64,000 nucleotides of DNA from the IMG/VR virus record IMGVR_UViG_3300045988_182866; one strand, given 5' to 3'. This document shows, in pieces, positions 2,999-12,597 of this stretch (within the stretch, counting starts at the first letter, position 1; the number at the start of each line of letters is the position of its first letter). The notes under the pieces are model-generated. The model was not told the origin of the DNA and ran no database searches. It worked only from the letters and a program-made list of their open reading frames with translations. The stretch comes from a virus. The translations under genes and the position numbers were made by a program.

Positions 2999-3634
2999 TC
3001 AATTTTTAAAGGTGCGCAGATTACACACTTTATTTTTAGTATGTATCTTGGTAAACAACAAATTTTCTATAGATTTTCTATTATTTTTCCAGTCTCTTTC
3101 TTCGACATTTATTAGTAGAATATTTGCTTCTTTACAACGCCTTTCCTTTTCGGCATGACAGCCAGGCTGTCTTTCTTCTTTAAGTTTATGCCAGTGAGAT
3201 CCATTATATTCAATGCCAATTCTTAATTCGGGAAGAAATATGTCAAGCTCCATTCTTCCTATTTGAGTCTTATCATTTTCAAGAACTTCTCCCGAATAAA
3301 TTGACTTAATATATGCACAAACTTCTTTTTCTCCTCTAGATGTCTGTTTAGATAAGGCACATATTGGACAACCTTGTTGAAGATACCAATGACTAGACGG
3401 TATTTGTTGAAATACTCCGTGTACAGGACATATGATATTAACCTTAGAATGTGCGTTTACATAATTTACTAAAGAATAATCATATTTTTCTCCATGAACT
3501 TTTCTAGACCTCTTAATAAATTCATCAATTGTTAACTTTTCAAAACCAAAACATTTAGGACACCCTGAGCCATTTAAATGACTATTTGGTTTTTGCCAAA
3601 AAATACCATGTTTAGGACAAATAATTGATAGTTG
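2999..3634 (-). pseudogene. 3' fragment of an interrupted Zn-ribbon/DUF559 homing-endonuclease-like gene: partial repeat + full repeat + DUF559 domain. The frame is open from a stop at 3635-3637 with no ATG until 3253.
   Basis: Minus-strand translation from 3625: IICPKHGIFWQKPNSHLNGSGCPKC..FIKRSRKVHGEKYDYSLVNYV..IICPVHG...MELDIFLPELRIGIEYNGSHWH. It begins mid-repeat exactly at the IS right end. The ORF track reports only the ATG-initiated 84-aa tail (2999..3253). Confidence 0.75.
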
Positions 3635-4863
3635 CTAATTTCAATGAAATTCATTGAAAATTAACTTATTTTATCATGGGGACCATATACTCCCAAGCGA
3701 AGGATATTGATAGCAGCATTAATATCAGCATCAAATGTTCCTCCACAAGTCTTACAGTGATATACTTCACCTTGTCGACTCGACTTATCAACAGTATTAC
3801 AAACGTGGCATCGTTGAGATGTATAAGCAGGAGGAACTTTAATCAACTGGAAACCTTCCGTCTCAGAAAGTGACTCAAACTTATTCATTACTTTAATGTA
3901 ACTCCACCTTTGTAACTTGTTGTTAAACTTTTTAGAAAACTTTGATTTGTACTTAATGCATTTAAGATTCTCGATAATTACTTGCCCACAATCTTTATGT
4001 TCGTTATAAAATTTCTTAACGGCTAGATTGATTGCTTCATCACGCTCCCTAAGAGCTCGTTTGAAAGCTTTAGACCGTTGTTTCTTGCGAGAAATCTTTT
4101 CATAAATGTCCTCAAGTTCTTTACCATAAACCTTTCCATCACTACATGCGAGTAACTTTTTGTAACCACAATCAACTCCTGCTGATAATTTATTCTTTTT
4201 CTTTTCAGCTTCTTCTTTTTCCCAAAATAATTTCAACGAGAAATTATCAGACAGCATGAAACTATTTTTTAATTTCCAACCATTATTTTTGAACCTCAAA
4301 CTTACTCGATGATGATTGATTGGAAGTTTAAGTAGTATAGCTCGATGTTTTGTCTCTTGAAAATATGGTGAAAATATCTTGATGAAACAGTCAAACTCCT
4401 TAGTCTTATCCTCTTCAATATCCCATAGCATATAGTTAAGATTAATACTATGGGATTTAATTACTGACTCAGTAATCTTCTTAATTCTTTTTTTCTTAAG
4501 TAAAGTAACTTGCGAACGGTAAATCTGTGAGGCCTCTCGATAACATAACGCTCTCCATCTACTATTAGAAATATCATTTAATTGTGGGCAAAACTTACTT
4601 GAAAGATTTTGTTTCAATGGTAATTCACCATCATGAATTTTATGAAGATATAACTGAAGCAACTCTTTATAATCCTTAATAATCTTCCAGTACAAATCGA
4701 TTTTATCTCGATTTGCATACTTAAGTGTATGGGAAGATGAACGAATCACTTTGTTAACATTTTTATCTAGCAAGGTAAAATTAAAACTTAGATATTTTTT
4801 TAAGAAAAAATGAAAATTTTGATTATAAATTCATTTTATTTCTTTGAAACTAATGAATAATTA
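3635..4863 (-). mobile_element. IS200/IS605-family insertion sequence, tnpB-only (IS1341-like), inserted into a homing-endonuclease-like gene
   Basis: TnpB ORF plus a perfect subterminal hairpin immediately after the tnpB stop (plus strand 3637-3659: TTCAATGAA-A-TTCATTGAA). An imperfect hairpin lies near the other end (~4820-4855: ATTCATT...AATGAAT). The flanking coding sequence on both sides belongs to the same repeat-protein family. Exact termini are not determined. Confidence 0.75.
3661..4773 (-). CDS. tnpB: TnpB (IS605 OrfB-type RNA-guided nuclease/transposase accessory protein)
   Basis: C-terminal PPAYTSQRCHVCNTVDKSSRQGEVYHCKTCGGTFDADINAAINIL carries the RuvC-III motif and CxxC...CxxC zinc finger diagnostic of TnpB/OrfB. 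370 aa. Confidence 0.85.
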   Translation of the reverse strand: MLDKNVNKVIRSSSHTLKYANRDKIDLYWKIIKDYKELLQLYLHKIHDGELPLKQNLSSKFCPQLNDISNSRWRALCYREASQIYRSQVTLLKKKRIKKITESVIKSHSINLNYMLWDIEEDKTKEFDCFIKIFSPYFQETKHRAILLKLPINHHRVSLRFKNNGWKLKNSFMLSDNFSLKLFWEKEEAEKKKNKLSAGVDCGYKKLLACSDGKVYGKELEDIYEKISRKKQRSKAFKRALRERDEAINLAVKKFYNEHKDCGQVIIENLKCIKYKSKFSKKFNNKLQRWSYIKVMNKFESLSETEGFQLIKVPPAYTSQRCHVCNTVDKSSRQGEVYHCKTCGGTFDADINAAINILRLGVYGPHDKIS

Positions 4864-5547
4864 TTATATTTTTTTCTGAGAATGCTCATAACTTACTTGA
4901 GAATAATCATAAAGAGTACCATGAACTTTTCTTGCTTTCTGAATAAAATCTTCAGTCGTTACTAACTCTTTATTTCCACATTTTGGACAACCACACCCAT
5001 TAAGATGGGAATTAGGTGTTTGCTGAAATATATGTCCACACTTTTTACATTTAATTTTTACCTTAACTTTATTACCCTGGTAATCCACTTCAGAATAATC
5101 AAATTTATCACCGTGTACTTTACTAGCTTTTTCAATAAATTCTTTAGTTGTAGATTTATTGTTATTAGAGCAAAAAGGACATCCAAAACCTTTCATATGG
5201 CTTTGTGCCTGCTGTTCAAATATATGCCCACATTTTTTACATTTAATTTTTACTTTAAGCTTATTGCCTTGATAATCTACTTCAGAATAATCAAATTTAT
5301 TGCCATGAACTTTTTGGGACTTTTCAATAAATTCTTTAGTTGTTAGCTTCTTAACACCAGCACATTCTAAACATCCGCATCCCTGGACATGGCTATAAGC
5401 TTTTTGCTGAAAAGAACCGTGAATAGGACATATTATTGTTATGACATTATGAGCTCCTGTATAAAAAGTCTCAGAATAATCATATTTGTTTCCATGAACC
5501 TCTGTACATTCTTTAATAAATTGCTCATTTGATTTTAATTTTGCCAT
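4864..5547 (-). pseudogene. 5' fragment of the same interrupted homing-endonuclease-like gene: three complete Zn-ribbon repeats plus a fourth truncated at the IS junction, no nuclease domain
   Basis: Repeats FI.K...VHG[ND]K[FY]DYS.V.Y.....[VK][IV].I.C..[HC]G.F.Q....H..G.GC..C. The last repeat ends ...VHGTLYDYSQVSYEHSQKKI-stop with the stop supplied at the IS boundary. The 3' fragment at 2999-3634 restarts with IICPKHG. Confidence 0.75.
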
Positions 5548-5588: not shown

Positions 5589-6149
5589 TTAATCTTCTGA
5601 ATCTTCTTCCGGTCTTACATAAATTGGAGCGTCTGCGCATTGAATAAGTTCCGGATATTTTACTTCCCTATATTTTTTAACTTTTTCAGCGTGCTTCTTT
5701 TCATTTTTTATGATTGCACAGAAGGACCAGTAACAGATTTGCGTCCAAAAACTGAAAGCCTTAGACCCATAATTCACACTCCATTTCTTCCCACGCAGTG
5801 CGGTCATACATTTAATGAGAGCACTTGAAATCATTTCATCTTTATAAGAATAACGGCTAAAGCTCGAAGACCTTGCTAAACCTTGCGCAATCTTAAGGAA
5901 ACATTCCGCGATGTAATTCATATTCGGTTTATCGCTGTCCTCAACTTCATAAAACCTTTTAATTGCCGCGTCAAATTTAGCCGAATCTACATAATAGTCC
6001 TCTTTTTTAGTCTTTCCTCGATTCTGAACAGTAATAAACGCCCTTTTCTTATTCGGATCATTCAGCATTTCACGCTTTTTATCCAAATCTTCAGGCGGAC
6101 GTGTTTTAGTAGAAGGCTGTACAAATTGTTCTTTATTAGCTTCAGTCAT
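5589..6149 (-). CDS. Late-transcription sigma factor, T4 gp55 homologue
   Basis: IAQGLARSSSFSRYSYKDEMISSALIKCMTAL...AFSFWTQICYWSFCAIIKNEKKHAEKVKKY aligns by eye with T4 gp55 ([34 protein letters not shown]...[26 protein letters not shown]). 186 aa against 185 aa for T4. Confidence 0.8.
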   Translation of the reverse strand: MTEANKEQFVQPSTKTRPPEDLDKKREMLNDPNKKRAFITVQNRGKTKKEDYYVDSAKFDAAIKRFYEVEDSDKPNMNYIAECFLKIAQGLARSSSFSRYSYKDEMISSALIKCMTALRGKKWSVNYGSKAFSFWTQICYWSFCAIIKNEKKHAEKVKKYREVKYPELIQCADAPIYVRPEEDSED

Positions 6150-6172: not shown

Positions 6173-7675
6173 TTAGGCCTTTAGGCCAATTATTTTAAAA
6201 GGAATCTTTTCTTGCTCATATAATTTGATACGTTCATCTCTATGCCTTAACGCATATTTTGTATTGGGAATTATATCGATAACCCGGGCAAGAGTTTTAT
6301 TTTCCTTTAAACGCAGTATTCGTCCGATGGATTGAATTATTCTTACATTGCTTTTTCCAATCAAACCAGGAAATACAATATTATGCAAATTTTTGATATT
6401 GATACCTGTTGAGAATATTGAAGCTTGAGCAATTAACAAAATATTGTTTTCTTTTTCCAATTGCTCCTTAATATCGGTTCGTTCTTCAATCGGCACCTCT
6501 CCTTGAATAAAGTAAACTTTTCTATTCGGATCGGCTTCTTTAAATTTTTGCAGAAGATTTTCCCCATGAATAATCCTATTGACCAAAATTAAAGTATTAT
6601 TGCTTAATTTTGAAACAATAGAAGTAATAGTTGAGTTAAACTGGTCATTATTGCTCAACCATTCGGTTTCTTCCATGAATCCAAAAGGCCTTTTAACACC
6701 TTCATCATCCAGGACATAAGTCGGAATATCATTTAATTGAATATTAATTCCAAAAGTTGAAACCTGCGTCAGGAATTTATCTTTTCTTAATTCTGCAGAA
6801 GGCAGTTCAAATCTTACAGGTCCAATTTTGCCTAAGATTGACCATTTGTCATGTTTATCATGTGGTAATGTACCTGTGAAGCCATATCTTAACTTAGCCG
6901 GAAGATCTGCGATAATCTTAGAAATTTTATTATTGGCCTTAATTGAATGAACTTCATCGATGATAATACAGTCAAATTTTTGTATCTCTTTTTTAAGGTC
7001 ATCATACTGGGCTCTGAGAATACTTGCTCCGCAAATAACGACTTGTGATTTCTTATCGAAAGGAATATTTGAAAACCATTTGGAAATAGAATATTTGAAA
7101 TTCTTTAAATGCGAAGAAATATCATTAAAAGTCTGATTGGCCAAATCAGGAAAAGGACAAACCAATAAAACTTTTCTGGCTAATTTATTCTTAAGAATAT
7201 TCCGGATTAATAATGCGCAGCATACTGTCTTGCCCGCTCCTGTTCCTAAAATATAAATACCGTTTTGCTTATTAAGGGCAATTTGCATCGATTCTTTTTG
7301 ATAAGGCCTGACTTCTGATCCTTTATCATCAATATAAATGTTCTTCGTATCAAGAACTAAATCATTGCTCTGAATATATTTTTTAATGCCGTCATCTAAT
7401 TTAAATTTAACAGAACGATCATAAAATGTATTCTTAACAAATGCAAGTATGTCTCGTAATAATCCGATTTCAAATTCACCGGACATTTTAATGCAAGATT
7501 TCTTAATATATTCTTTACTCGGTTGAATTTTGATGCCTTTTTGACGACATCTCTTGACATACATATGATTTCGTTCAACTGTAGAAAAATGATCTCTCAA
7601 TTGTTCATAAGCATCAAAGTACTCAAATATAATCCTACCAAGATTATTTGATGTTCTGTTGATTTCGATAATCAT
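6173..7675 (-). CDS. uvsW: SF2 DEAD/DEAH-box DNA helicase, UvsW-like
   Basis: Walker A GTGAGKT, DEVH box, ~500 aa. It is adjacent to a UvsY-like gene, as in T4. The symbol is tentative. Confidence 0.5.
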   Translation of the reverse strand: MIIEINRTSNNLGRIIFEYFDAYEQLRDHFSTVERNHMYVKRCRQKGIKIQPSKEYIKKSCIKMSGEFEIGLLRDILAFVKNTFYDRSVKFKLDDGIKKYIQSNDLVLDTKNIYIDDKGSEVRPYQKESMQIALNKQNGIYILGTGAGKTVCCALLIRNILKNKLARKVLLVCPFPDLANQTFNDISSHLKNFKYSISKWFSNIPFDKKSQVVICGASILRAQYDDLKKEIQKFDCIIIDEVHSIKANNKISKIIADLPAKLRYGFTGTLPHDKHDKWSILGKIGPVRFELPSAELRKDKFLTQVSTFGINIQLNDIPTYVLDDEGVKRPFGFMEETEWLSNNDQFNSTITSIVSKLSNNTLILVNRIIHGENLLQKFKEADPNRKVYFIQGEVPIEERTDIKEQLEKENNILLIAQASIFSTGINIKNLHNIVFPGLIGKSNVRIIQSIGRILRLKENKTLARVIDIIPNTKYALRHRDERIKLYEQEKIPFKIIGLKA

Positions 7676-7779
7676 TATAATTCAATTATAACGTAAAATA
7701 TTCAAAATTGATCAAAAATTATTCAAATAATTTAATATTAATAACTTAAATTACACAATATTTATTTGATTTTAATATA

Positions 7780-8215
7780 ATTTATTTAAATTTAATTAAT
7801 TATATCAAATATAATTGGTATACTGGTCTCGCGCGCGGGAGGAGAATACCAATTATATTTTAATTATATTCAATTATATTTTAATTATAATAAAATTATT
7901 TTGAAATTTATTTTCAAAATTTTAATTTTATTTTCAAATTTATTTTGAAATTTGAAACATACGAACTTATTAAGGGGTACGCGCGCGTACCCCACATAGC
8001 CCATTAGGGCAATATTCATAAGCGTGCAGCGCACGCTTTCTACTTTATATTTAATTAATTAAATATAAATAAATATTTATTTATATTTAAATTATAATAT
8101 AAAATATTAAAAATAATTTAAAATATTAAAAATTTTTTCTATGCGCGCCCGCGCCCGCACACACGCGCACACGAAATCACCGAGCGCTGTTTTGGAGGTT
8201 TAACCAAATAGATAA
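7780..8215. repeat. Intergenic cluster of GC-rich palindromes and AT-rich iteron-like direct repeats (candidate replication origin or structured ncRNA region)
   Basis: The elements are: (1) 7815-7850 GGTATACTGG-tctcgcgcgcgggagga-GAATACCAATT inverted repeat. (2) 7895-7958, four copies of TTATTTT[GC]AAA[AT]. (3) 7975-7994 perfect palindrome GGGGTACGCGCGCGTACCCC, followed by GCCCattaGGGC and AAGCGTGCaGCACGCTT hairpins. (4) 8141-8200 gcgcgcccgcgcccgcacacacgcgcacacg. The flanking sequence is >75% AT. Confidence 0.5.
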
Positions 8216-8282
8216 TTGTCTAATCCGAATAAGATTTGAATAAGTACATTTATTATCAGGATCTCTTCGGTACTCTATGGAT

Positions 8283-8323
8283 AATAAAAAACCAATCTGA
8301 CTTATAGAAATCAGATTGGTTTC
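8283..8323 (-). terminator. Rho-independent terminator for the uvsY-like gene
   Basis: Minus-strand AAACCAATCTGA-tttctataag-TCAGATTGGTTT followed by TTTTATTAT. Confidence 0.6.
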
Positions 8324-8437
8324 GACAATTTATTTTTAAAATCTCCTGGAGAATTATTTTAAATTCTTTTACCCTCCAGGTAGTAAAGTACAAGCCTAAA
8401 AGTTTTTAAAATTTTCTAGATATTTTTTAGAATTAAA

Positions 8438-8836
8438 TTACAGAACTTGAAGCTGCATGATCTCGACGATGTTCTTAACGTCATTCGTAATATAGGCGAA
8501 GATCTTTTCGACTTTATTCAAATATTCAACCAGCATCTTTTGATCTTCGATCTCTTGAGTAATTTCCTGCATAGGCTTGGTATTGGCAATAACATTTTTC
8601 ATAGAAGCAGTAGACATTTGAACCAATGGCTCCTGCTTTTCAAGGGCAGTTTTTTCAAGAGCTTTCTTCTTTCGTTCCAATCTATTGAGTTCCTGTGTTT
8701 CTAAAATCAGCTTTGTTACCCAATAATGTTTTCTTTGAGGAATTTCAAAAGATTTTTGCTGAATAACCATTTCATTTAATTTCAAATCTTCAGCAATTTC
8801 TTTTGAGTATTGTTCGAGTTTTTCTTGAGGTGTCAT
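8438..8836 (-). CDS. uvsY: UvsY-like recombination mediator (tentative)
   Basis: 132 aa against 137 aa for T4 UvsY. The central segment YWVTKLILETQELNRLERKKKALEKTALEKQ resembles UvsY WLNKHSSIKKEMLRIEAQKKVALKARLDYY. Next to the UvsW-like helicase. Confidence 0.4.
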   Translation of the reverse strand: MTPQEKLEQYSKEIAEDLKLNEMVIQQKSFEIPQRKHYWVTKLILETQELNRLERKKKALEKTALEKQEPLVQMSTASMKNVIANTKPMQEITQEIEDQKMLVEYLNKVEKIFAYITNDVKNIVEIMQLQVL

Positions 8837-8863: not shown

Positions 8864-9301
8864 ATGAAGCTAAAAAGACATAAGGATATTGCCTCATTAT
8901 TCATTAACAAGAAAAAAGTTGAAGAAGACTGCGAAGGAATGACAGCAGGTTCTGTTTTAGCTCCTTCAGCCCAGGCGACTGGAGGAAATATTACAAATAC
9001 CGATTCGTATGCCCCAGGAGACAATAGAATTCCTAAGTCTTTATTCAAAACGAGGGTTATTAAACGAAAATATAAAGAAGAAGATGCTGAAGAATATCCT
9101 GAAATTCCGGCTGATTTCTTTACTGATAAGGAATGGGAAAAAATTGAAGAAGAGGCTGAAAGCCGTGGATGCAGTCCTTATGAAGTAGCTTATCGAGAAT
9201 ATAAAGCCAGAGGAGGAATGGACCAGGACCGCAAAATGACGGATATTGAAGTTCAAAAAGCATTTGATGAATTAAAATCGCATTTGGCGGATTATAATTG
9301 A
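8864..9301 (+). CDS. Hypothetical 145-aa protein sharing a ~25-aa motif with the major capsid protein N-terminal region
   Basis: ATGGNITNTDSYAPGDNRIPKSLFKTRVIKR against MCP GGAITQGDTYAKGDNRLPKILLPMIRR (42225 gene). Acidic C-terminal half. Confidence 0.5.
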   Translation: MKLKRHKDIASLFINKKKVEEDCEGMTAGSVLAPSAQATGGNITNTDSYAPGDNRIPKSLFKTRVIKRKYKEEDAEEYPEIPADFFTDKEWEKIEEEAESRGCSPYEVAYREYKARGGMDQDRKMTDIEVQKAFDELKSHLADYN

Positions 9302-9762
9302 TTCCAATGAATCAAGATTTAGGTCATTGGGTTACTTCGATAGACATCCCTGAAGAAATATTCGGGTTTGTCTATCGAATTACCAATTTGGAAAATAATA
9401 AAATGTACATCGGTAAAAAACTTTGTACATCGGTTAAAAAGCTTCCTCCATTAAAAGGTAAAACAAGAAAAAGACATAAAAAAGTAGAAACAGATTGGAA
9501 AACTTATACCGGGTCTTCTCCGGAATTAAATGAAGATATTAAAAAATTAGGCAAAGATAAATTTAAATTCGAGATTATAAAATTTTGTACCTGTAAATGG
9601 GAATTGAGTTATTTTGAAGCAAAGGCCCAATTTGAAGAAGATGTTTTATTCAAGCAAGATGAATATTACAATGGTATAATCAATTTAAGAATTGGCCGTT
9701 CGCCAAAAGAAAGTCTTGAAAAATTTAATTTATGCCAATCGAATTTAAAATCCGGAATTTAA
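9298..9762 (+). CDS. GIY-YIG domain endonuclease (Seg/I-TevI-like, short form)
   Basis: GFVYRITNLENNKMYIGKK matches the GIY-(x10)-YIG signature. Conserved R/H/E residues follow downstream (TRKRHKK..E). Confidence 0.5.
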   Translation: MIPMNQDLGHWVTSIDIPEEIFGFVYRITNLENNKMYIGKKLCTSVKKLPPLKGKTRKRHKKVETDWKTYTGSSPELNEDIKKLGKDKFKFEIIKFCTCKWELSYFEAKAQFEEDVLFKQDEYYNGIINLRIGRSPKESLEKFNLCQSNLKSGI

Positions 9763-10656: not shown

Positions 10657-12597
10657 ATGCAAGAATTTACAAAAATTTTACAAAATATTGAGCTAATTCA
10701 GGAAGCTCAAAAAAGAAAAGATCCTGTTCTTAATGTAGTAACATTATTCAGTGGAATGGGAGCTCCGGAAATTGCCCTTGATAAATTGGGAGTCAAATAC
10801 AGGATTGTTCTGGCATCTGATATTGATCCAGAGGCTGAAGCAGTTTATAAGCAACTTCATGGTAAAAAACTTGCTAAAGGAAATGATTCATTTATTCCGA
10901 ATGTTTATGATGTTTTAGACCAGGTTGAACCTTCAAAGCTTAGCGCAGATGTTTTAATTGCAGGATTTTCTTGCCAGGCTTTTTCTTTATCTGGTAAACA
11001 ATATGGCATTTATTCTCGTCAAGTAAAACCTGAAGGATCCAATAAAAAATTTGTCGTCAATATTAAAAGGCATTTAACTGATATTAATGGAGATACTGCA
11101 ATCACTGTTAATAATGATGAATCTGATCCTTTACCTGAAGGACTTCCCGAAGGAACTAAAGTAACTATTTCTCCAGATTCTGACGGTAAGCTGGCATTTC
11201 AAACATTAAAGATTGCCCAAACATTAAAGCCAAAAGTTATTATTCTTGAAAATGTTTCTACTTTTGGCCAGGCTGATATTGAAGATGAAGATGAAGTTCC
11301 TTCTGAATTTATTACAGAAGAAAAAGAAATTAAAGTAATTCAATCCAGACTGGGACAATCTGGAAAAGTAGACATATCTGAAGGAGGTTATTTGAGACTC
11401 CTTGGAAAGATTTTCAATACTATTGGATATAGTTTTTATCCAATGTACCTTGATCCGACTTCTTATACTAATTCCGTAATTCGTCGTCCACGAATTTATA
11501 TCGTTGGTATTCGAAATGATATTGAAGCAGGAATTAATCCAAATAAATTAGAAGCTTTTGATGATAAGATGGCAACTAATTTTGGATTGAACACCACTAA
11601 ATCCGAAAAGGATTATCAAAAGCTTTTGGACAAAACTTTGAACTACATTATGAGTTCAAAGTATTCTCATGGCTATATGTCCAAAAATCCTCGAGAACTT
11701 GTTAAAGGTTTAGTCTCTAAATTTGGCATTAATAGATTTGCAGAAGCTACTGACTATATCTTTAATAAGCTTGTTAAAAATGGAAGTGTTGATCCCAGAA
11801 ACCTTCAATTAAATCAATTTCAGTATGATTCTAATGTTATTGATAAAGAATTTAATGATCCTCAGGTTATTAAATTCTTCAAGAAAATCAGAAGCGAACA
11901 GCAACCTGTAATTTTGGATGTATCTGAAAAAAGCGATACTGTTGATTATCTTTCTACTGTTTTAGCGGAAGGTATTTCTGGTTATTTTGAAGAATATAGC
12001 GGTAAATTTACTATTGATAATCCGCAAGGTGAATTAAATTTAGACTTTGGAACTAAACCCGCAAAACCAAAGGTTAAGAAAGAAAAACCATTGGTTCAGG
12101 GTGAATTGGATCTTGACTATGGGGAAGATCCTTTGGGACAAGTAGTTCAAGAAGCTTTAGGAAAATATAATAATCAAAAAGTTGATGAAATTGCTATTAA
12201 GAAATTTAAAGAAATCATTGCTAAGAAGTTATTGACCCAATTTCTTTTAAATTCTTATAATAAACGTAATTTAAGTTATATTCCTACAATTCTCAAGAAT
12301 TCATCTATTCCTATGAAAGTCGGAGGAGTTGGCAATGCAAACTACTTTATTCTTCGTAATAAATCCGGACAGTTTAGCTGGGGATATATTCATCCGGCAA
12401 TTTTGATGAAGTTGATGGGAATGTATTATAATTCAAGTTCCGGAGATGATTCAATTTATCAAAGTATAGCAAAAACAAAACTTACAAATGGCCGTCCGAT
12501 TTCAGTTAATGGAATTATTCGACGAATTGGTAATTCAATGAGTGTAACAGTTCTTGAAAAATTATTCAAATCGCTAATTTCAATGAAAGCCCTATGA
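10657..12597 (+). CDS. DNA (cytosine-5)-methyltransferase family protein (646 aa) with a Ser-Cys-Gln variant of the catalytic PCQ motif and long insertions
   Basis: Motif I LFSGMGAPE (FxGxGG). Motif IV GFSCQAFS, where the Ser replaces the canonical Pro. Motif VI VIILENVSTF (ENV). Motif VIII RRPRIYIVGIRND. Motif X RRIGNSMSVTVLEK (GN[SA]V). Confidence 0.75.
   Translation: MQEFTKILQNIELIQEAQKRKDPVLNVVTLFSGMGAPEIALDKLGVKYRIVLASDIDPEAEAVYKQLHGKKLAKGNDSFIPNVYDVLDQVEPSKLSADVLIAGFSCQAFSLSGKQYGIYSRQVKPEGSNKKFVVNIKRHLTDINGDTAITVNNDESDPLPEGLPEGTKVTISPDSDGKLAFQTLKIAQTLKPKVIILENVSTFGQADIEDEDEVPSEFITEEKEIKVIQSRLGQSGKVDISEGGYLRLLGKIFNTIGYSFYPMYLDPTSYTNSVIRRPRIYIVGIRNDIEAGINPNKLEAFDDKMATNFGLNTTKSEKDYQKLLDKTLNYIMSSKYSHGYMSKNPRELVKGLVSKFGINRFAEATDYIFNKLVKNGSVDPRNLQLNQFQYDSNVIDKEFNDPQVIKFFKKIRSEQQPVILDVSEKSDTVDYLSTVLAEGISGYFEEYSGKFTIDNPQGELNLDFGTKPAKPKVKKEKPLVQGELDLDYGEDPLGQVVQEALGKYNNQKVDEIAIKKFKEIIAKKLLTQFLLNSYNKRNLSYIPTILKNSSIPMKVGGVGNANYFILRNKSGQFSWGYIHPAILMKLMGMYYNSSSGDDSIYQSIAKTKLTNGRPISVNGIIRRIGNSMSVTVLEKLFKSLISMKAL

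What the first reader, a model, noticed from the sequence alone, without database searches (positions are those of the whole stretch)
7676..8437. 760-bp non-coding region between the uvsW-like and uvsY-like genes packed with GC-rich palindromes and iterons: candidate replication origin or structured RNA
The sequence is otherwise >75% AT, yet three islands of near-pure GC palindromes occur here. They are tctcgcgcgcggga, flanked by a 10-bp inverted repeat at 7815-7850; GGGGTACGCGCGCGTACCCC with two further hairpins at 7975-8037; and gcgcgcccgcgcccgcacacacgcgcacacg at 8141-8175. AT-rich direct repeats are also present. One set is 4x TTATTTT[GC]AAA at 7895-7958. Another is 3x AATTATATT at 7862-7885. 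TATAAATA occurs on both strands at ~8073 and ~8087. In T4 one of the best-studied origins (oriF) lies at uvsY, and UvsW acts on origin R-loops. A structured iteron and unwinding element exactly between these two genes is therefore suggestive. Alternatives are a pac site, binding sites for a phage regulator, or small RNAs.
Basis: partly seen in the sequence, partly recalled or inferred. Interest (0 to 1): 0.55.

Follow-up and report, generated by a model that had tools for sequence, protein, structure and literature searches.

The report
AT-rich spacer with GC palindromes, candidate origin
Between two recombination genes of a very common, uncultured human-gut T4-like phage lies a real non-coding DNA module that related phages also keep: stretches of almost pure A/T bracketed by short G/C-rich alternating palindromes, most plausibly a replication origin combined with gene-control signals, though its function is unproven.

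Summary
Window 7676-8437 is non-coding and lies between a UvsW-like helicase gene and a UvsY-like gene. The islands are not merely GC-rich. They are alternating purine-pyrimidine, CpG-rich tracts of the kind that can form Z-DNA or cruciforms, far beyond chance.

The phage is a ~201-205 kb human-gut phage found in thousands of assemblies. This allele is near-identical in 10 samples. Other strains carry a strongly diverged allele, with or without a TnpB insertion.

Eight related lineages (UvsW 48-63% identical) keep the same architecture near uvsY/uvsW. The sequence is otherwise unalignable apart from short GC motifs such as GCGCGCGAG. In one lineage the module has moved with uvsY. More distant T4-like phages have uvsY overlapping uvsW and no spacer.

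I found no known RNA family, no tRNA, no DnaA-box cluster and no significant RNA covariation. GC skew follows gene orientation.

Best reading (about 0.4): a self-contained cis-acting DNA module, probably a T4-style promoter-plus-unwinding-element origin, with the uvsY terminator and uvsW promoters at its edges. The main rival (0.3) is a terminator/promoter insulator.

The parts
8438..8836 (-). uvsY-like recombination mediator gene (flanking context)
   Evidence: PHROG 231, E = 5e-8. The Pfam UvsY match is weak. Homologues flank the module in all relatives.
8345..8380 (-). Hairpin CCTGGAG...CTCCAGG in the uvsY 3' region
   Evidence: 7-nt inverted repeat. One arm is mutated in L003 and L085 without compensation, so selection for it is doubtful.
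8288..8323 (-). Canonical intrinsic terminator of uvsY: 16-bp stem, 4-nt loop, then a T6 run
   Evidence: Terminator scan and fold. Stem and loop are identical in all alleles; L007 has a T run one base shorter.
8176..8287 (-). Segment of 33% GC shared by all alleles of the species. Includes a stem-loop at about 8212-8236 that stays paired through transitions.
   Evidence: The covariation is not significant (109 of 500 shuffles reach the observed value).
8141..8175 (.). GC island 3. Alternating purine-pyrimidine tract CGCACACACGCGCACACG plus GCGCCC x2. G-rich on the uvsY/uvsW sense strand. This is the point where alleles A and B diverge.
   Evidence: The L003 contig ends exactly at its edge.
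8039..8140 (.). AT desert 3 (3% GC, with one 80-bp stretch at 0% GC). Least stable 100 bp of the 64 kb. Contains a central AT palindrome at 8045-8104 and a 20-bp tandem unit whose copy number varies between samples.
   Evidence: Palindrome: I4. Indel.
7974..8038 (.). Central GC cluster: perfect 20-bp palindrome (7974-7993), GCCC-ATTA-GGGC (7999-8010) and AAGCGTGC-AGC-GCACGCTT (8020-8038). The last resembles a terminator on the + strand.
   Evidence: The motif GTGCGCYGCA is shared with L033 and L025 (read).
7861..7973 (.). AT desert 2 (9% GC) carrying the direct repeats: AATTATATT x3-4 (which reads AATATAATT, containing TATAAT, on the uvsW sense strand) and TTATTTTSAAA x4
   Evidence: (D1, D4, D9). 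Similar AAAATATAATT repeats occur in L027.
7807..7860 (.). GC island 1: 27+27-nt interrupted palindrome with core TCTCGCGCGCGGGA. The only copy of the motif CTCGCGCGCG in the 64 kb.
   Evidence: (I9). The motif is conserved in L007, L025, L026 and L027, and GCGCGCGAG also in L033. The L001 contig ends inside it.
7799..7807 (-). Perfect extended -10 promoter-like element TGATATAAT reading towards uvsW, directly followed by AT desert 1
   Evidence: Read directly from the sequence. Conserved in L007 and L001. Function not tested.
7783..7790 (-). TTTAAATA, a copy of the motif enriched 7-16 nt upstream of start codons in this phage (candidate late promoter), 108 nt upstream of the uvsW ATG
7676..7806 (.). 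AT desert 1 (9% GC), holding the presumed uvsW leader and promoter region. Second least stable 100-bp window of the 64 kb.
6173..7675 (-). uvsW-like SF2 helicase gene (flanking context)

Best explanation
The core of the spacer (about 7690-8175) is a self-contained, cis-acting DNA module. It consists of three blocks of 100-130 bp of almost pure A/T that melt very easily. These are separated and bracketed by short CpG-rich, alternating purine-pyrimidine, largely palindromic islands.

I think it most likely serves as a replication origin of the T4 type. In that type a promoter fires into an A+T-rich unwinding element, where the transcript or the opened duplex lets the phage replisome assemble. 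The GC islands would act as fixed structural boundaries or protein-binding sites that can adopt cruciform or Z-form DNA under negative supercoiling.

The edges of the spacer carry ordinary gene signals. The uvsY intrinsic terminator is at 8288-8323. An extended -10 element (7799-7807) and a TTTAAATA motif (7783-7790) read into uvsW.

Shown: the anatomy, its statistical significance, its conservation as an architecture, its independence from either flanking gene, and its allelic mosaicism. Inferred: that it initiates replication, and how.
For: 1. The module contains the three least stable 100-bp windows of the 64 kb, 3.5-4.3 sd below the mean stability, and stretches of 0-9% GC.

2. The GC islands show 70% alternating purine-pyrimidine steps, against 44% in GC-rich patches elsewhere in the window. 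The same bias appears in L025, L026, L032, L033 and allele B.

3. In six related lineages, every GC-rich alternating run within 5-8.5 kb of sequence falls in this one spacer.

4. The module is kept in eight lineages with 48-63% UvsW identity, although its sequence is unalignable. Only short motifs persist: GCGCGCGAG is exact in five lineages, always single-copy and always inside the module.

5. In L033, L026 and L032 the islands form inverted repeats that flank an AT desert. This symmetry is typical of bidirectional origins.

6. The module is independent of its neighbours. In L032 it lies 3' of an inverted uvsY and not next to uvsW. In L026 two ORFs separate it from uvsY.

7. It sits in the uvsY-uvsW-gp55-gp47-gp46 gene block, 0.4-1.1 kb from a switch in transcription direction and nucleotide skew. 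T4 oriE, oriF and oriG lie near such switches. The minimal T4 oriF/oriG is a promoter plus an A+T-rich unwinding element with no specific sequence requirement (PMC3016281). Here TGATATAAT is followed directly by a 9%-GC block.

8. The locus is a hotspot of allele replacement and of insertion by TnpB (IS200/IS605-family) elements.
Against: There is no replication data of any kind.

GC skew follows coding strand, and its minimum (8800) lies at the divergent gene junction rather than in the spacer.

No initiator gene, conserved iterons or DnaA-box cluster is present.

Allele B of the same species lacks island 1 and most of the allele-A sequence. No single island other than island 3 and the central GCGTGCG motif is therefore indispensable.

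The module is absent from more distant T4-like phages.

A terminator/promoter cassette would explain many of the same features.

Only 64 kb of a genome of about 200 kb was examined, so uniqueness within the genome is unknown.
Confidence: 0.4

Rival explanations
1. The spacer is a transcriptional insulator made of terminators and promoters. It uncouples uvsY from uvsW, which are translationally coupled in more distant relatives. The hairpins stop transcription in both directions. The AT blocks carry promoters and UP-like elements. The long AT leader and the 5' hairpin regulate uvsW, which in T4 must be expressed late.
For: A canonical terminator follows uvsY. Terminator-like hairpins lie at 8020-8038 (+) and at island 1. 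An extended -10 element TGATATAAT and the gene-proximal motif TTTAAATA lie 108-130 nt upstream of uvsW. Allele B has TGTGCTATAAT in the same sense. In outgroup phages uvsY overlaps uvsW, so the insertion creates separate transcription units. The locus is plastic, like the promoter-terminator cassettes called PeSLs (PMC4122927).
Against: The spacer is much larger and more elaborate than a terminator plus a promoter: three AT deserts and five or more hairpins. Terminator function does not explain the alternating purine-pyrimidine and CpG bias of the islands, and the phage's clear terminator at 8288-8323 lacks that bias. In L032 the module is not upstream of uvsW at all. Promoter-like hits are only mildly above shuffles (17 against 10 +/- 3.8).
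Confidence: 0.3
2. The spacer is the decaying remnant of one or more mobile elements, such as a MITE bounded by inverted repeats or relics of IS200/IS605-TnpB elements. It would have been inserted between uvsY and uvsW in the ancestor of the clade and have no current function.
For: The spacer is a clade-specific insertion between genes that otherwise overlap. Inverted repeats bound the module in L033, L026 and L032. The module has a different position and orientation in L032. TnpB elements sit in or next to the spacer in some strains. Allele B contains an AT-decayed relic of the region 3' of tnpB. The neighbourhood is full of homing endonuclease genes.
Against: The islands have no other copy in the 64-kb window. 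The architecture has persisted through roughly 50% protein divergence in genomes under strong deletion pressure, while its sequence turned over, which points to selection. The GC islands do not resemble the TnpB element ends seen in L008 and L085.
Confidence: 0.13
3. The GC islands are the structured cores of two or three small RNA genes. Each would be driven by a promoter in the preceding AT block and would end at a hairpin terminator. In AT-rich genomes, RNA genes show up as GC-rich islands.
For: The folds are stable on either strand (z = -4.6 to -5.5). The + strand order of AT block, hairpins and U-rich tail at 7965-8045 looks like an RNA of about 75 nt. A stem at about 8212-8236 stays paired through five variable positions, with G-U pairs only on the - strand.
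Against: No Rfam family matches, even at E up to 10 (best 27 bits against a gathering score of 80), and there is no tRNA. The covariation is not significant. The homologous central clusters of L025, L026 and L033 conserve primary sequence but no common structure. The stems are perfect palindromes and so are equally good as DNA cruciforms or dimer-binding sites. RNA function does not explain the purine-pyrimidine alternation.
Confidence: 0.12
4. The spacer is a packaging (pac) site or a physical genome terminus.
For: Six related contigs end inside the spacer: L001, L003, L004, L006, L023 and L002.
Against: Nine contigs of 200-205 kb run straight through it at arbitrary internal positions. One contig end is a read-through Nextera adapter. 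The other breaks coincide with GC islands or allele boundaries, as expected from strain heterogeneity and extreme composition. T4-like phages package by headful, without a pac site (established knowledge).
Confidence: 0.03

Closest known systems
Phage T4 oriF (uvsY) and oriG (34), the R-loop origins
   Same: The element is non-coding and cis-acting and lies next to uvsY in a T4-like replication and recombination gene block. A promoter-like element is followed by an A+T-rich, easily unwound stretch. No specific sequence or initiator protein is required. It lies near a switch of transcription direction. UvsW, which removes such R-loops in T4, is encoded next door (PMC3016281).
   Different: T4 oriF lies at the promoter and 5' end of uvsY and is about 100 bp long. 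This module lies 3' of uvsY, measures 235-866 bp, contains several AT blocks and carries conserved CpG-rich alternating palindromes that T4 origins lack. No MotA-type middle promoter was identified. R-loop formation and replication are untested.
PeSLs, the composite terminator/promoter cassettes of T4-type phages (Arbiol 2010; Comeau 2014, PMC4122927)
   Same: Stem-loops lie next to AT-rich promoter sequences in a plastic part of a T4-like genome, and allele-exchange breakpoints fall at the elements.
   Different: PeSLs are short, dispersed, multi-copy repeats placed just upstream of many small ORFs, with a Shine-Dalgarno sequence and a start codon. This module is single-copy in 64 kb, far larger, and its stems are CpG-rich alternating palindromes.
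Origins built as an AT-rich unwinding element flanked by inverted GC-richer recognition sites, such as archaeal ORB-flanked origins and herpesvirus oriS (from memory, not tested here)
   Same: Inverted GC-rich repeats bracket an A/T-only core, most clearly in relatives L033, L026 and L032.
   Different: Those origins need a dedicated initiator (Orc1/Cdc6, UL9). No candidate initiator gene was found next to this module, and the islands vary greatly between lineages.
Z-DNA and cruciform-forming tracts, (CG)n and (CA)n, that compete with strand opening in supercoiled DNA (PMC3343103, PMC3024258)
   Same: Runs of 14-42 nt of alternating purine-pyrimidine sequence with CG and CA/TG steps, several of them perfect palindromes, sit directly beside highly meltable DNA.
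   Different: Only the sequence criterion is met. Formation in vivo is unknown, and a role for such tracts in a phage origin or regulatory region has not, to my knowledge, been described.
IS200/IS605-TnpB elements and their miniature derivatives
   Same: TnpB genes occupy this very spacer, or the other side of uvsY, in some strains. Relics of the 3' flank of tnpB persist in allele B.
   Different: The GC islands and AT deserts are not part of the TnpB element. They are present in alleles that lack any tnpB and do not resemble its ends.

Membership tests
T4-type R-loop origin (oriF/oriG) | [quoted passage not shown] | tested here: met
   The three least stable 100-bp windows of the 64 kb lie here, with 3-9% GC.
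T4-type R-loop origin (oriF/oriG) | A promoter (middle-mode in T4) firing into the unwinding element | tested here: inconclusive
   TGATATAAT at 7799-7807 (-) precedes AT desert 1. Sigma-70-like hits are only mildly above shuffles. No MotA box was sought successfully, and the host and its promoter type are unknown.
T4-type R-loop origin (oriF/oriG) | A persistent R-loop, and autonomous replication of a plasmid carrying the element during infection | not testable with these tools
   This needs a cultured phage and host, or read-depth data.
Iteron-type origin (lambda, P1, RK2, T4 oriE-like) | Three or more conserved direct repeats that bind an initiator encoded nearby | tested here: not met
   The repeats are 9-11 nt and A/T-only. 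They are absent from allele B. No Rep-like gene flanks the module.
Host DnaA-dependent origin | A cluster of DnaA boxes (TTATCCACA) | tested here: not met
   One 1-mismatch box lies in the spacer. The window holds 23 against 20.8 expected, and that box is not conserved between alleles.
PeSL cassettes | A dispersed multi-copy repeat in many intergenic spaces, consisting of a stem-loop, an early promoter, a Shine-Dalgarno sequence and a start codon | tested here: not met
   No other copy of any island or of the CTCGCGCGCG motif occurs in the 64 kb. The definition was taken from PMC4122927.
Known RNA families (Rfam 15) and tRNA/tmRNA | A covariance-model match at the gathering score | tested here: not met
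   The best hit scores 27 bits against a gathering score of 80. Ten related loci gave no hits. ARAGORN found nothing.
Novel structured RNA | Base pairs maintained by compensatory changes beyond controls | tested here: inconclusive
   One 9-bp stem is 97% paired with two double changes, but 109 of 500 shuffles do as well. The central clusters of three lineages share no common structure.
Z-DNA-prone sequence | Alternating purine-pyrimidine tract rich in CG or CA steps, at least about 12 bp long | tested here: met
   GTACGCGCGCGTAC (14 nt) and CGCACACACGCGCACACG (18 nt). Relatives carry runs of up to 42 nt.
Z-DNA-prone sequence | Actual B-to-Z transition or cruciform extrusion in vivo | not testable with these tools
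   This needs chemical or antibody probing.
MITE or IS-derived element | Terminal inverted repeats, target-site duplication and multiple genomic copies | tested here: inconclusive
   Inverted repeats occur in L033, L026 and L032 but not clearly in the window. No other copies occur in the 64 kb. The rest of the genome was not seen.
Intrinsic terminator (for 8288-8323 only) | A GC-containing stem-loop followed by a T run, downstream of a gene on the same strand | tested here: met
   A 16-bp stem plus TTTTTT lies 115 nt after the uvsY stop codon. Stem and loop are identical in all alleles; L007 has a T run one base shorter.

The most novel reading that the evidence does not exclude
The module is an origin, or replication/recombination initiation site, specified by DNA structure rather than by an initiator protein. 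CpG-rich alternating palindromes would flip to Z-form or extrude as cruciforms under negative supercoiling. That would gate the opening of the adjacent pure-A/T unwinding blocks. Cytosine-5 methylation by the DNA methyltransferase encoded 2 kb away in some lineages could tune the switch. The motifs ACGT, CACG and CGCG are depleted 3-4 fold elsewhere in the genome but concentrated here, which would fit motifs reserved for this function.
Probability: 0.1. Interest if true: 0.8.

Novelty: new variant of a known kind. Interest (0 to 1): 0.5.

Why it matters
Origins of T4-like phages are known experimentally only for T4 itself and are not conserved in sequence. A recognisable, clade-wide origin signature would therefore be useful in one of the most prevalent large phages of the human gut, which was found in more than 2000 blocks of the assembly collection.

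Such a signature would let replication activity be read from metagenomic coverage. It would help define the biology of an uncultured phage group. It would also offer a natural test case for whether Z-DNA and cruciform-prone tracts have a function in bacterial viruses.

Even if the module proves to be an insulator, it shows how a tight uvsY-uvsW gene pair was split and given independent control. It also marks a hotspot where TnpB elements and allele replacement reshape an otherwise 98-99% conserved genome.

Tried and rejected
- **Known RNA families.** Rfam at E up to 10 on the region, and at gathering score on 10 related loci, gave nothing credible. ARAGORN found no tRNA.
- **GenBank phages.** There was no DNA match for the spacer or for 7 kb around it.
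- **IMG/VR searches.** The exact 20-mer palindrome gave no hits. A conserved 16-mer gave 51 loci, of which only L059 comes from a contig already tied to this phage (it is the L003 contig); the other 50 were not inspected.
- **Bacterial genomes.** The 20-mer palindrome gave three Streptomyces hits, which I take as chance matches in GC-rich genomes; it is not a host repeat.
- **TATAAATA as late promoter.** Rejected: it occurs only 3 + 3 times in 64 kb and is not positioned before genes.
- **Bacteroidota -7 promoter motif TAnnTTTG.** Not enriched.
- **DnaA boxes.** At chance level.
- **GC skew as origin evidence.** Rejected, because skew follows coding strand.
- **Contig ends as genome termini.** Rejected: one end is adapter read-through, and nine contigs of 200-205 kb span the site.
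- **RNA covariation.** The shared segment is not significant. The central clusters of three lineages show no common structure on either strand.
- **G-rich R-loop nucleation at the first island.** This holds in the window, in allele B and in L025, but not generally (read), so I dropped it as a general rule.
- **The 45-aa and 49-aa ORFs inside the spacer.** They span hairpins or repeats. The 49-aa ORF lies in sequence that allele B replaces. I treated both as non-coding.
Full report
**What is there**

Window 7676-8437 is a 762-bp gap between two minus-strand genes. One is a UvsW-like SF2 helicase gene at 6173-7675 (Pfam ResIII/DEAD/Helicase_C; 32% identical to cyanophage UvsW). The other is a UvsY-like gene at 8438-8836 (PHROG 231, E = 5e-8). 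Downstream of uvsW lie a gp55-like late sigma factor, homing endonuclease genes, a TnpB gene and a gp47-like phosphoesterase. This is therefore the replication and recombination block of a T4-like phage.

The spacer alternates between blocks of 100-130 bp at 3-9% GC and short islands at 39-74% GC. No credible ORF, tRNA or Rfam family lies in it.

**Is it more than chance?**

Yes.
- Three of the six most GC-dense 14-mers of the window are here.
- The islands are alternating purine-pyrimidine tracts. GTACGCGCGCGTAC and CGCACACACGCGCACACG are the two longest GC-rich alternating runs in the 64 kb. Two such runs were observed against 0.015 expected per dinucleotide shuffle.
- 70% of dinucleotide steps in the islands alternate, against 44% in GC-rich patches elsewhere in the window.
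- 9 of the 22 CGCG tetramers lie in this 1.2% of the window. CGCG, ACGT, CACG and CGTG are depleted 3-4 fold elsewhere.
- By nearest-neighbour stability, the three least stable 100-bp windows of the 64 kb are 8041-8140, 7716-7815 and 7852-7951.
- The hairpins fold far better than shuffles, with z from -4.6 to -5.5.

**Where the sequence comes from**

Relatives 98-100% identical in UvsW come from human-gut metagenomes, on contigs of 195-205 kb. The exact UvsY protein is indexed in 2146 blocks of the assembly collection. GenBank phages have no DNA match. The phage is thus a very prevalent, uncultured gut phage of about 200 kb.

The window's version of the spacer (allele A) is essentially identical in 10 independent assemblies. 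The only notable difference is one 20-bp A/T tandem unit. The feature is therefore real and not an assembly artefact.

**Allelic mosaicism**

The flanking genes are 98-99% identical between strains, yet the spacer exists in sharply different forms.
- L007 is 94% identical, with indels.
- Allele B (L005, L020) matches only from uvsY to GC island 3. It then carries about 500 bp of barely alignable sequence that still contains an AT desert and a central alternating island, GCACGCGAGCGTGCGAGC.
- L008, L002 and L085 are allele B plus a 385-387-aa TnpB gene inserted just upstream of uvsW.
- Allele B without tnpB retains an AT-decayed relic of the region 3' of tnpB.
- A second TnpB insertion site lies on the other side of uvsY, in L020 and probably as the 1.6-kb insert in L005.

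Six related contigs end inside the spacer, two of them exactly at a GC island. One of these ends is a Nextera adapter, and nine contigs of 200-205 kb cross the site internally. I attribute the breaks to strain heterogeneity and extreme composition, not to physical genome ends.

**Deeper comparison**

I examined eight lineages whose UvsW is 48-63% identical: L024, L025, L026, L027/L028, L029, L031/L032 and L033. All keep the same gene neighbourhood and a non-coding gap of 235-519 bp. These gaps cannot be aligned with the window, but they have the same build: A/T-only stretches punctuated by GC-rich hairpins and alternating tracts.

In L024, L025, L026, L033 and L031/L032, every GC-rich alternating run in 5-8.5 kb of sequence falls in this one gap. 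L025 has a 42-nt run. L027 and L029 have GC hairpins but no long alternating run.

Short motifs do persist. CTCGCGCGCG/GCGCGCGAG occurs once per locus, only inside the module, in the window, L007, L025, L026, L027 and L033. The central island shares GTGCGCYGCA with L033 and L025.

In L033, a 22-nt, 95% complementary inverted repeat (GCGTTACGTGAATTAA... / ...TTAATTCACGTAACGC) brackets the AT core. L026 and L032 are similar.

The module is independent of its neighbours. In L032 the UvsY homologue (53% identical) is on the opposite strand. There the module lies 3' of uvsY, between it and the SegE-like gene, while uvsW directly follows another ORF. In L026 two ORFs separate uvsY from the module.

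In more distant T4-like phages (UvsW 37-38% identical; L089, L090) the uvsY stop overlaps the uvsW start and there is no spacer. The module is thus a clade-specific insertion. It has been kept as an architecture while its sequence turned over, which argues for function.

**RNA or DNA?**

The stems are mostly perfect palindromes, so they would serve equally well as DNA cruciforms or as binding sites for protein dimers.

The segment between the uvsY terminator and island 3 is shared by all alleles. It contains a 9-bp stem that stays paired through five variable positions, with G-U pairs only on the minus strand. The changes are all transitions, and the shuffle control is not significant (109 of 500). 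Divergence simply rises towards the variable core.

The homologous central clusters of L025, L026 and L033 conserve primary sequence but no common fold on either strand.

RNA function would not explain the purine-pyrimidine alternation either. I therefore favour a DNA-level role for the core, and I regard small RNAs as a minority possibility.

**Ordinary signals at the edges**

- 8323-8288 (-) is a textbook intrinsic terminator 115 nt after uvsY. Its stem and loop are identical in all alleles; L007 has a T run one base shorter.
- On the uvsW sense strand, TGATATAAT (7807-7799) is a perfect extended -10 element immediately after island 1.
- TTTAAATA (7790-7783) is a copy of the motif that is 12-fold enriched upstream of ORFs in this phage, usually 7-16 nt before the ATG.
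- Three more TTAAATA copies lie in the AT palindrome at 8048-8090. That number is expected by chance in A/T-only DNA.

**Function**

The T4 review (PMC3016281) makes three relevant points. Minimal oriF and oriG are a promoter plus an A+T-rich unwinding element with no specific sequence requirement. The active origins oriE, oriF and oriG sit near switches of transcription direction and nucleotide skew. UvsW removes the origin R-loops late in infection.

The present module offers the strongest unwinding elements in the window and promoter-like elements firing into them. It has inverted GC repeats around AT cores, and it lies 0.4-1.1 kb from a strand switch (cumulative skew minimum at 8800). It also keeps its identity wherever it sits. 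These points make a replication origin the best single explanation, at about 0.4.

Several weaknesses remain.
- There are no replication data.
- Skew follows coding strand, so it is not independent evidence.
- There are no DnaA boxes, no conserved iterons and no initiator gene.
- Allele B lacks island 1.
- T4 oriF is at the 5' end of uvsY, not the 3' end.

The main rival, at 0.3, is a terminator/promoter insulator that split a formerly coupled uvsY-uvsW pair. It explains the edges well. It does not explain the size of the module, the alternation bias or the L032 arrangement. The remaining rivals are a relic of mobile DNA (0.13), small RNA genes (0.12) and a pac site (0.03).

**Novelty and score**

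A non-coding AT-rich region with palindromes beside replication genes is a familiar kind of candidate origin. What is unusual is the clade-wide signature of CpG-rich alternating palindromes, prone to Z-DNA or cruciform formation, that bracket pure-A/T blocks. It is also unusual that these motifs are concentrated here while being depleted elsewhere in the genome, and that this occurs in a very prevalent gut phage.

I rate it a new variant of a known kind, with interest 0.5. The most novel reading still allowed is a structure-specified, supercoil-gated origin, possibly tuned by the phage's cytosine methyltransferase. I give that reading a probability of about 0.1.

Noticed in passing
window 3661-4773 (-): The window carries its own TnpB (IS605 OrfB / Cas12f-like) gene of 370 aa with a TTG start. 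It sits among homing-endonuclease-like genes (1796-2977 HNH; 4864-5547 DUF723/DUF4379). The sequence just downstream of it reads like a further zinc-finger endonuclease-type ORF.
   Followed up: partly
L008 497-1660 (-), L085 1275-2432 (-), L020 1463-2701 (-), L005 2097-3722: In some strains of the same phage, TnpB elements are inserted at two different sites beside uvsY. One site is immediately upstream of uvsW. The other lies between uvsY and the divergent 145-aa gene. Allele B without tnpB keeps an AT-decayed relic of the region 3' of tnpB, the presumed guide-RNA end.
   Followed up: partly
window, e.g. 21528, 27367, 32550, 36712, 46140, 54278 (+); 15120, 16348, 40192 (-): TTAAATA(T) is 12-fold enriched upstream of ORFs and usually lies only 7-16 nt before the ATG. 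It is a candidate late promoter for the gp55-like sigma factor at 5589-6149, giving nearly leaderless mRNAs. The T4 consensus TATAAATA is rare, at 6 copies in 64 kb.
   Followed up: partly
whole window; methyltransferase gene at 10657-12597 (+): ACGT (56 observed, 185 expected), CACG (21 against 83), CGTG (30 against 87) and CGCG outside the spacer (13 against about 38) are strongly depleted. This suggests restriction avoidance or reserved motifs. A 646-aa protein with a cytosine-5 DNA methyltransferase domain is encoded 2 kb from the spacer and is syntenic in some relatives (L024, L026) but absent in others (L025, L027, L033).
   Followed up: no
L009 1-2205 joined to window-like sequence at L009 2202 (about window 7785): A 3.5-kb contig with 4.7x coverage joins a complete bacterial EF-G (fusA) gene to the AT block upstream of uvsW. 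This is probably a chimeric assembly, but it could hint at the host.
   Followed up: no
L023 3' end (about window 7815): A 201-kb contig ends with the Nextera mosaic-end adapter CTGTCTCTTATACACATC right after island 1. Untrimmed adapter sequence stopped the assembly at this low-coverage spot.
   Followed up: yes
L024 about 3336-3364; L029 about 3312-3340; L027 about 3463-3491: A homopurine/homopyrimidine mirror repeat, CTTTCTTTCTTTATATATTTCTTTCTTTA, is conserved inside the module of three lineages. It is of the type that can form triplex DNA. It is inverted in L027 relative to L024 and L029. The window has only a partial match, CTTTCTACTTTATATTT, at 8035-8051.
   Followed up: no
window about 8100-8135 versus L014-L023: Most other samples carry one extra 20-bp A/T unit (TATTTTAAATTATTTTAAAT) in AT desert 3. 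Island 3 differs between alleles by one 6-bp GCGGGC unit. Both are slippage-type length polymorphisms.
   Followed up: yes
window 9298-9762 (+) and syntenic genes in L024-L033, L090: A SegE-like GIY-YIG endonuclease gene is kept at the same position near uvsY in nearly all relatives examined, including an outgroup phage. That is unusually stable for a homing endonuclease. Its ORF overlaps both neighbouring ORFs.
   Followed up: no
L089 3606-4001/4001-5467; L090 3564-4001/4001-5446: In more distant T4-like phages the uvsY stop codon overlaps the uvsW start codon, which suggests translational coupling. This is the likely ancestral state before the spacer was acquired.
   Followed up: yes
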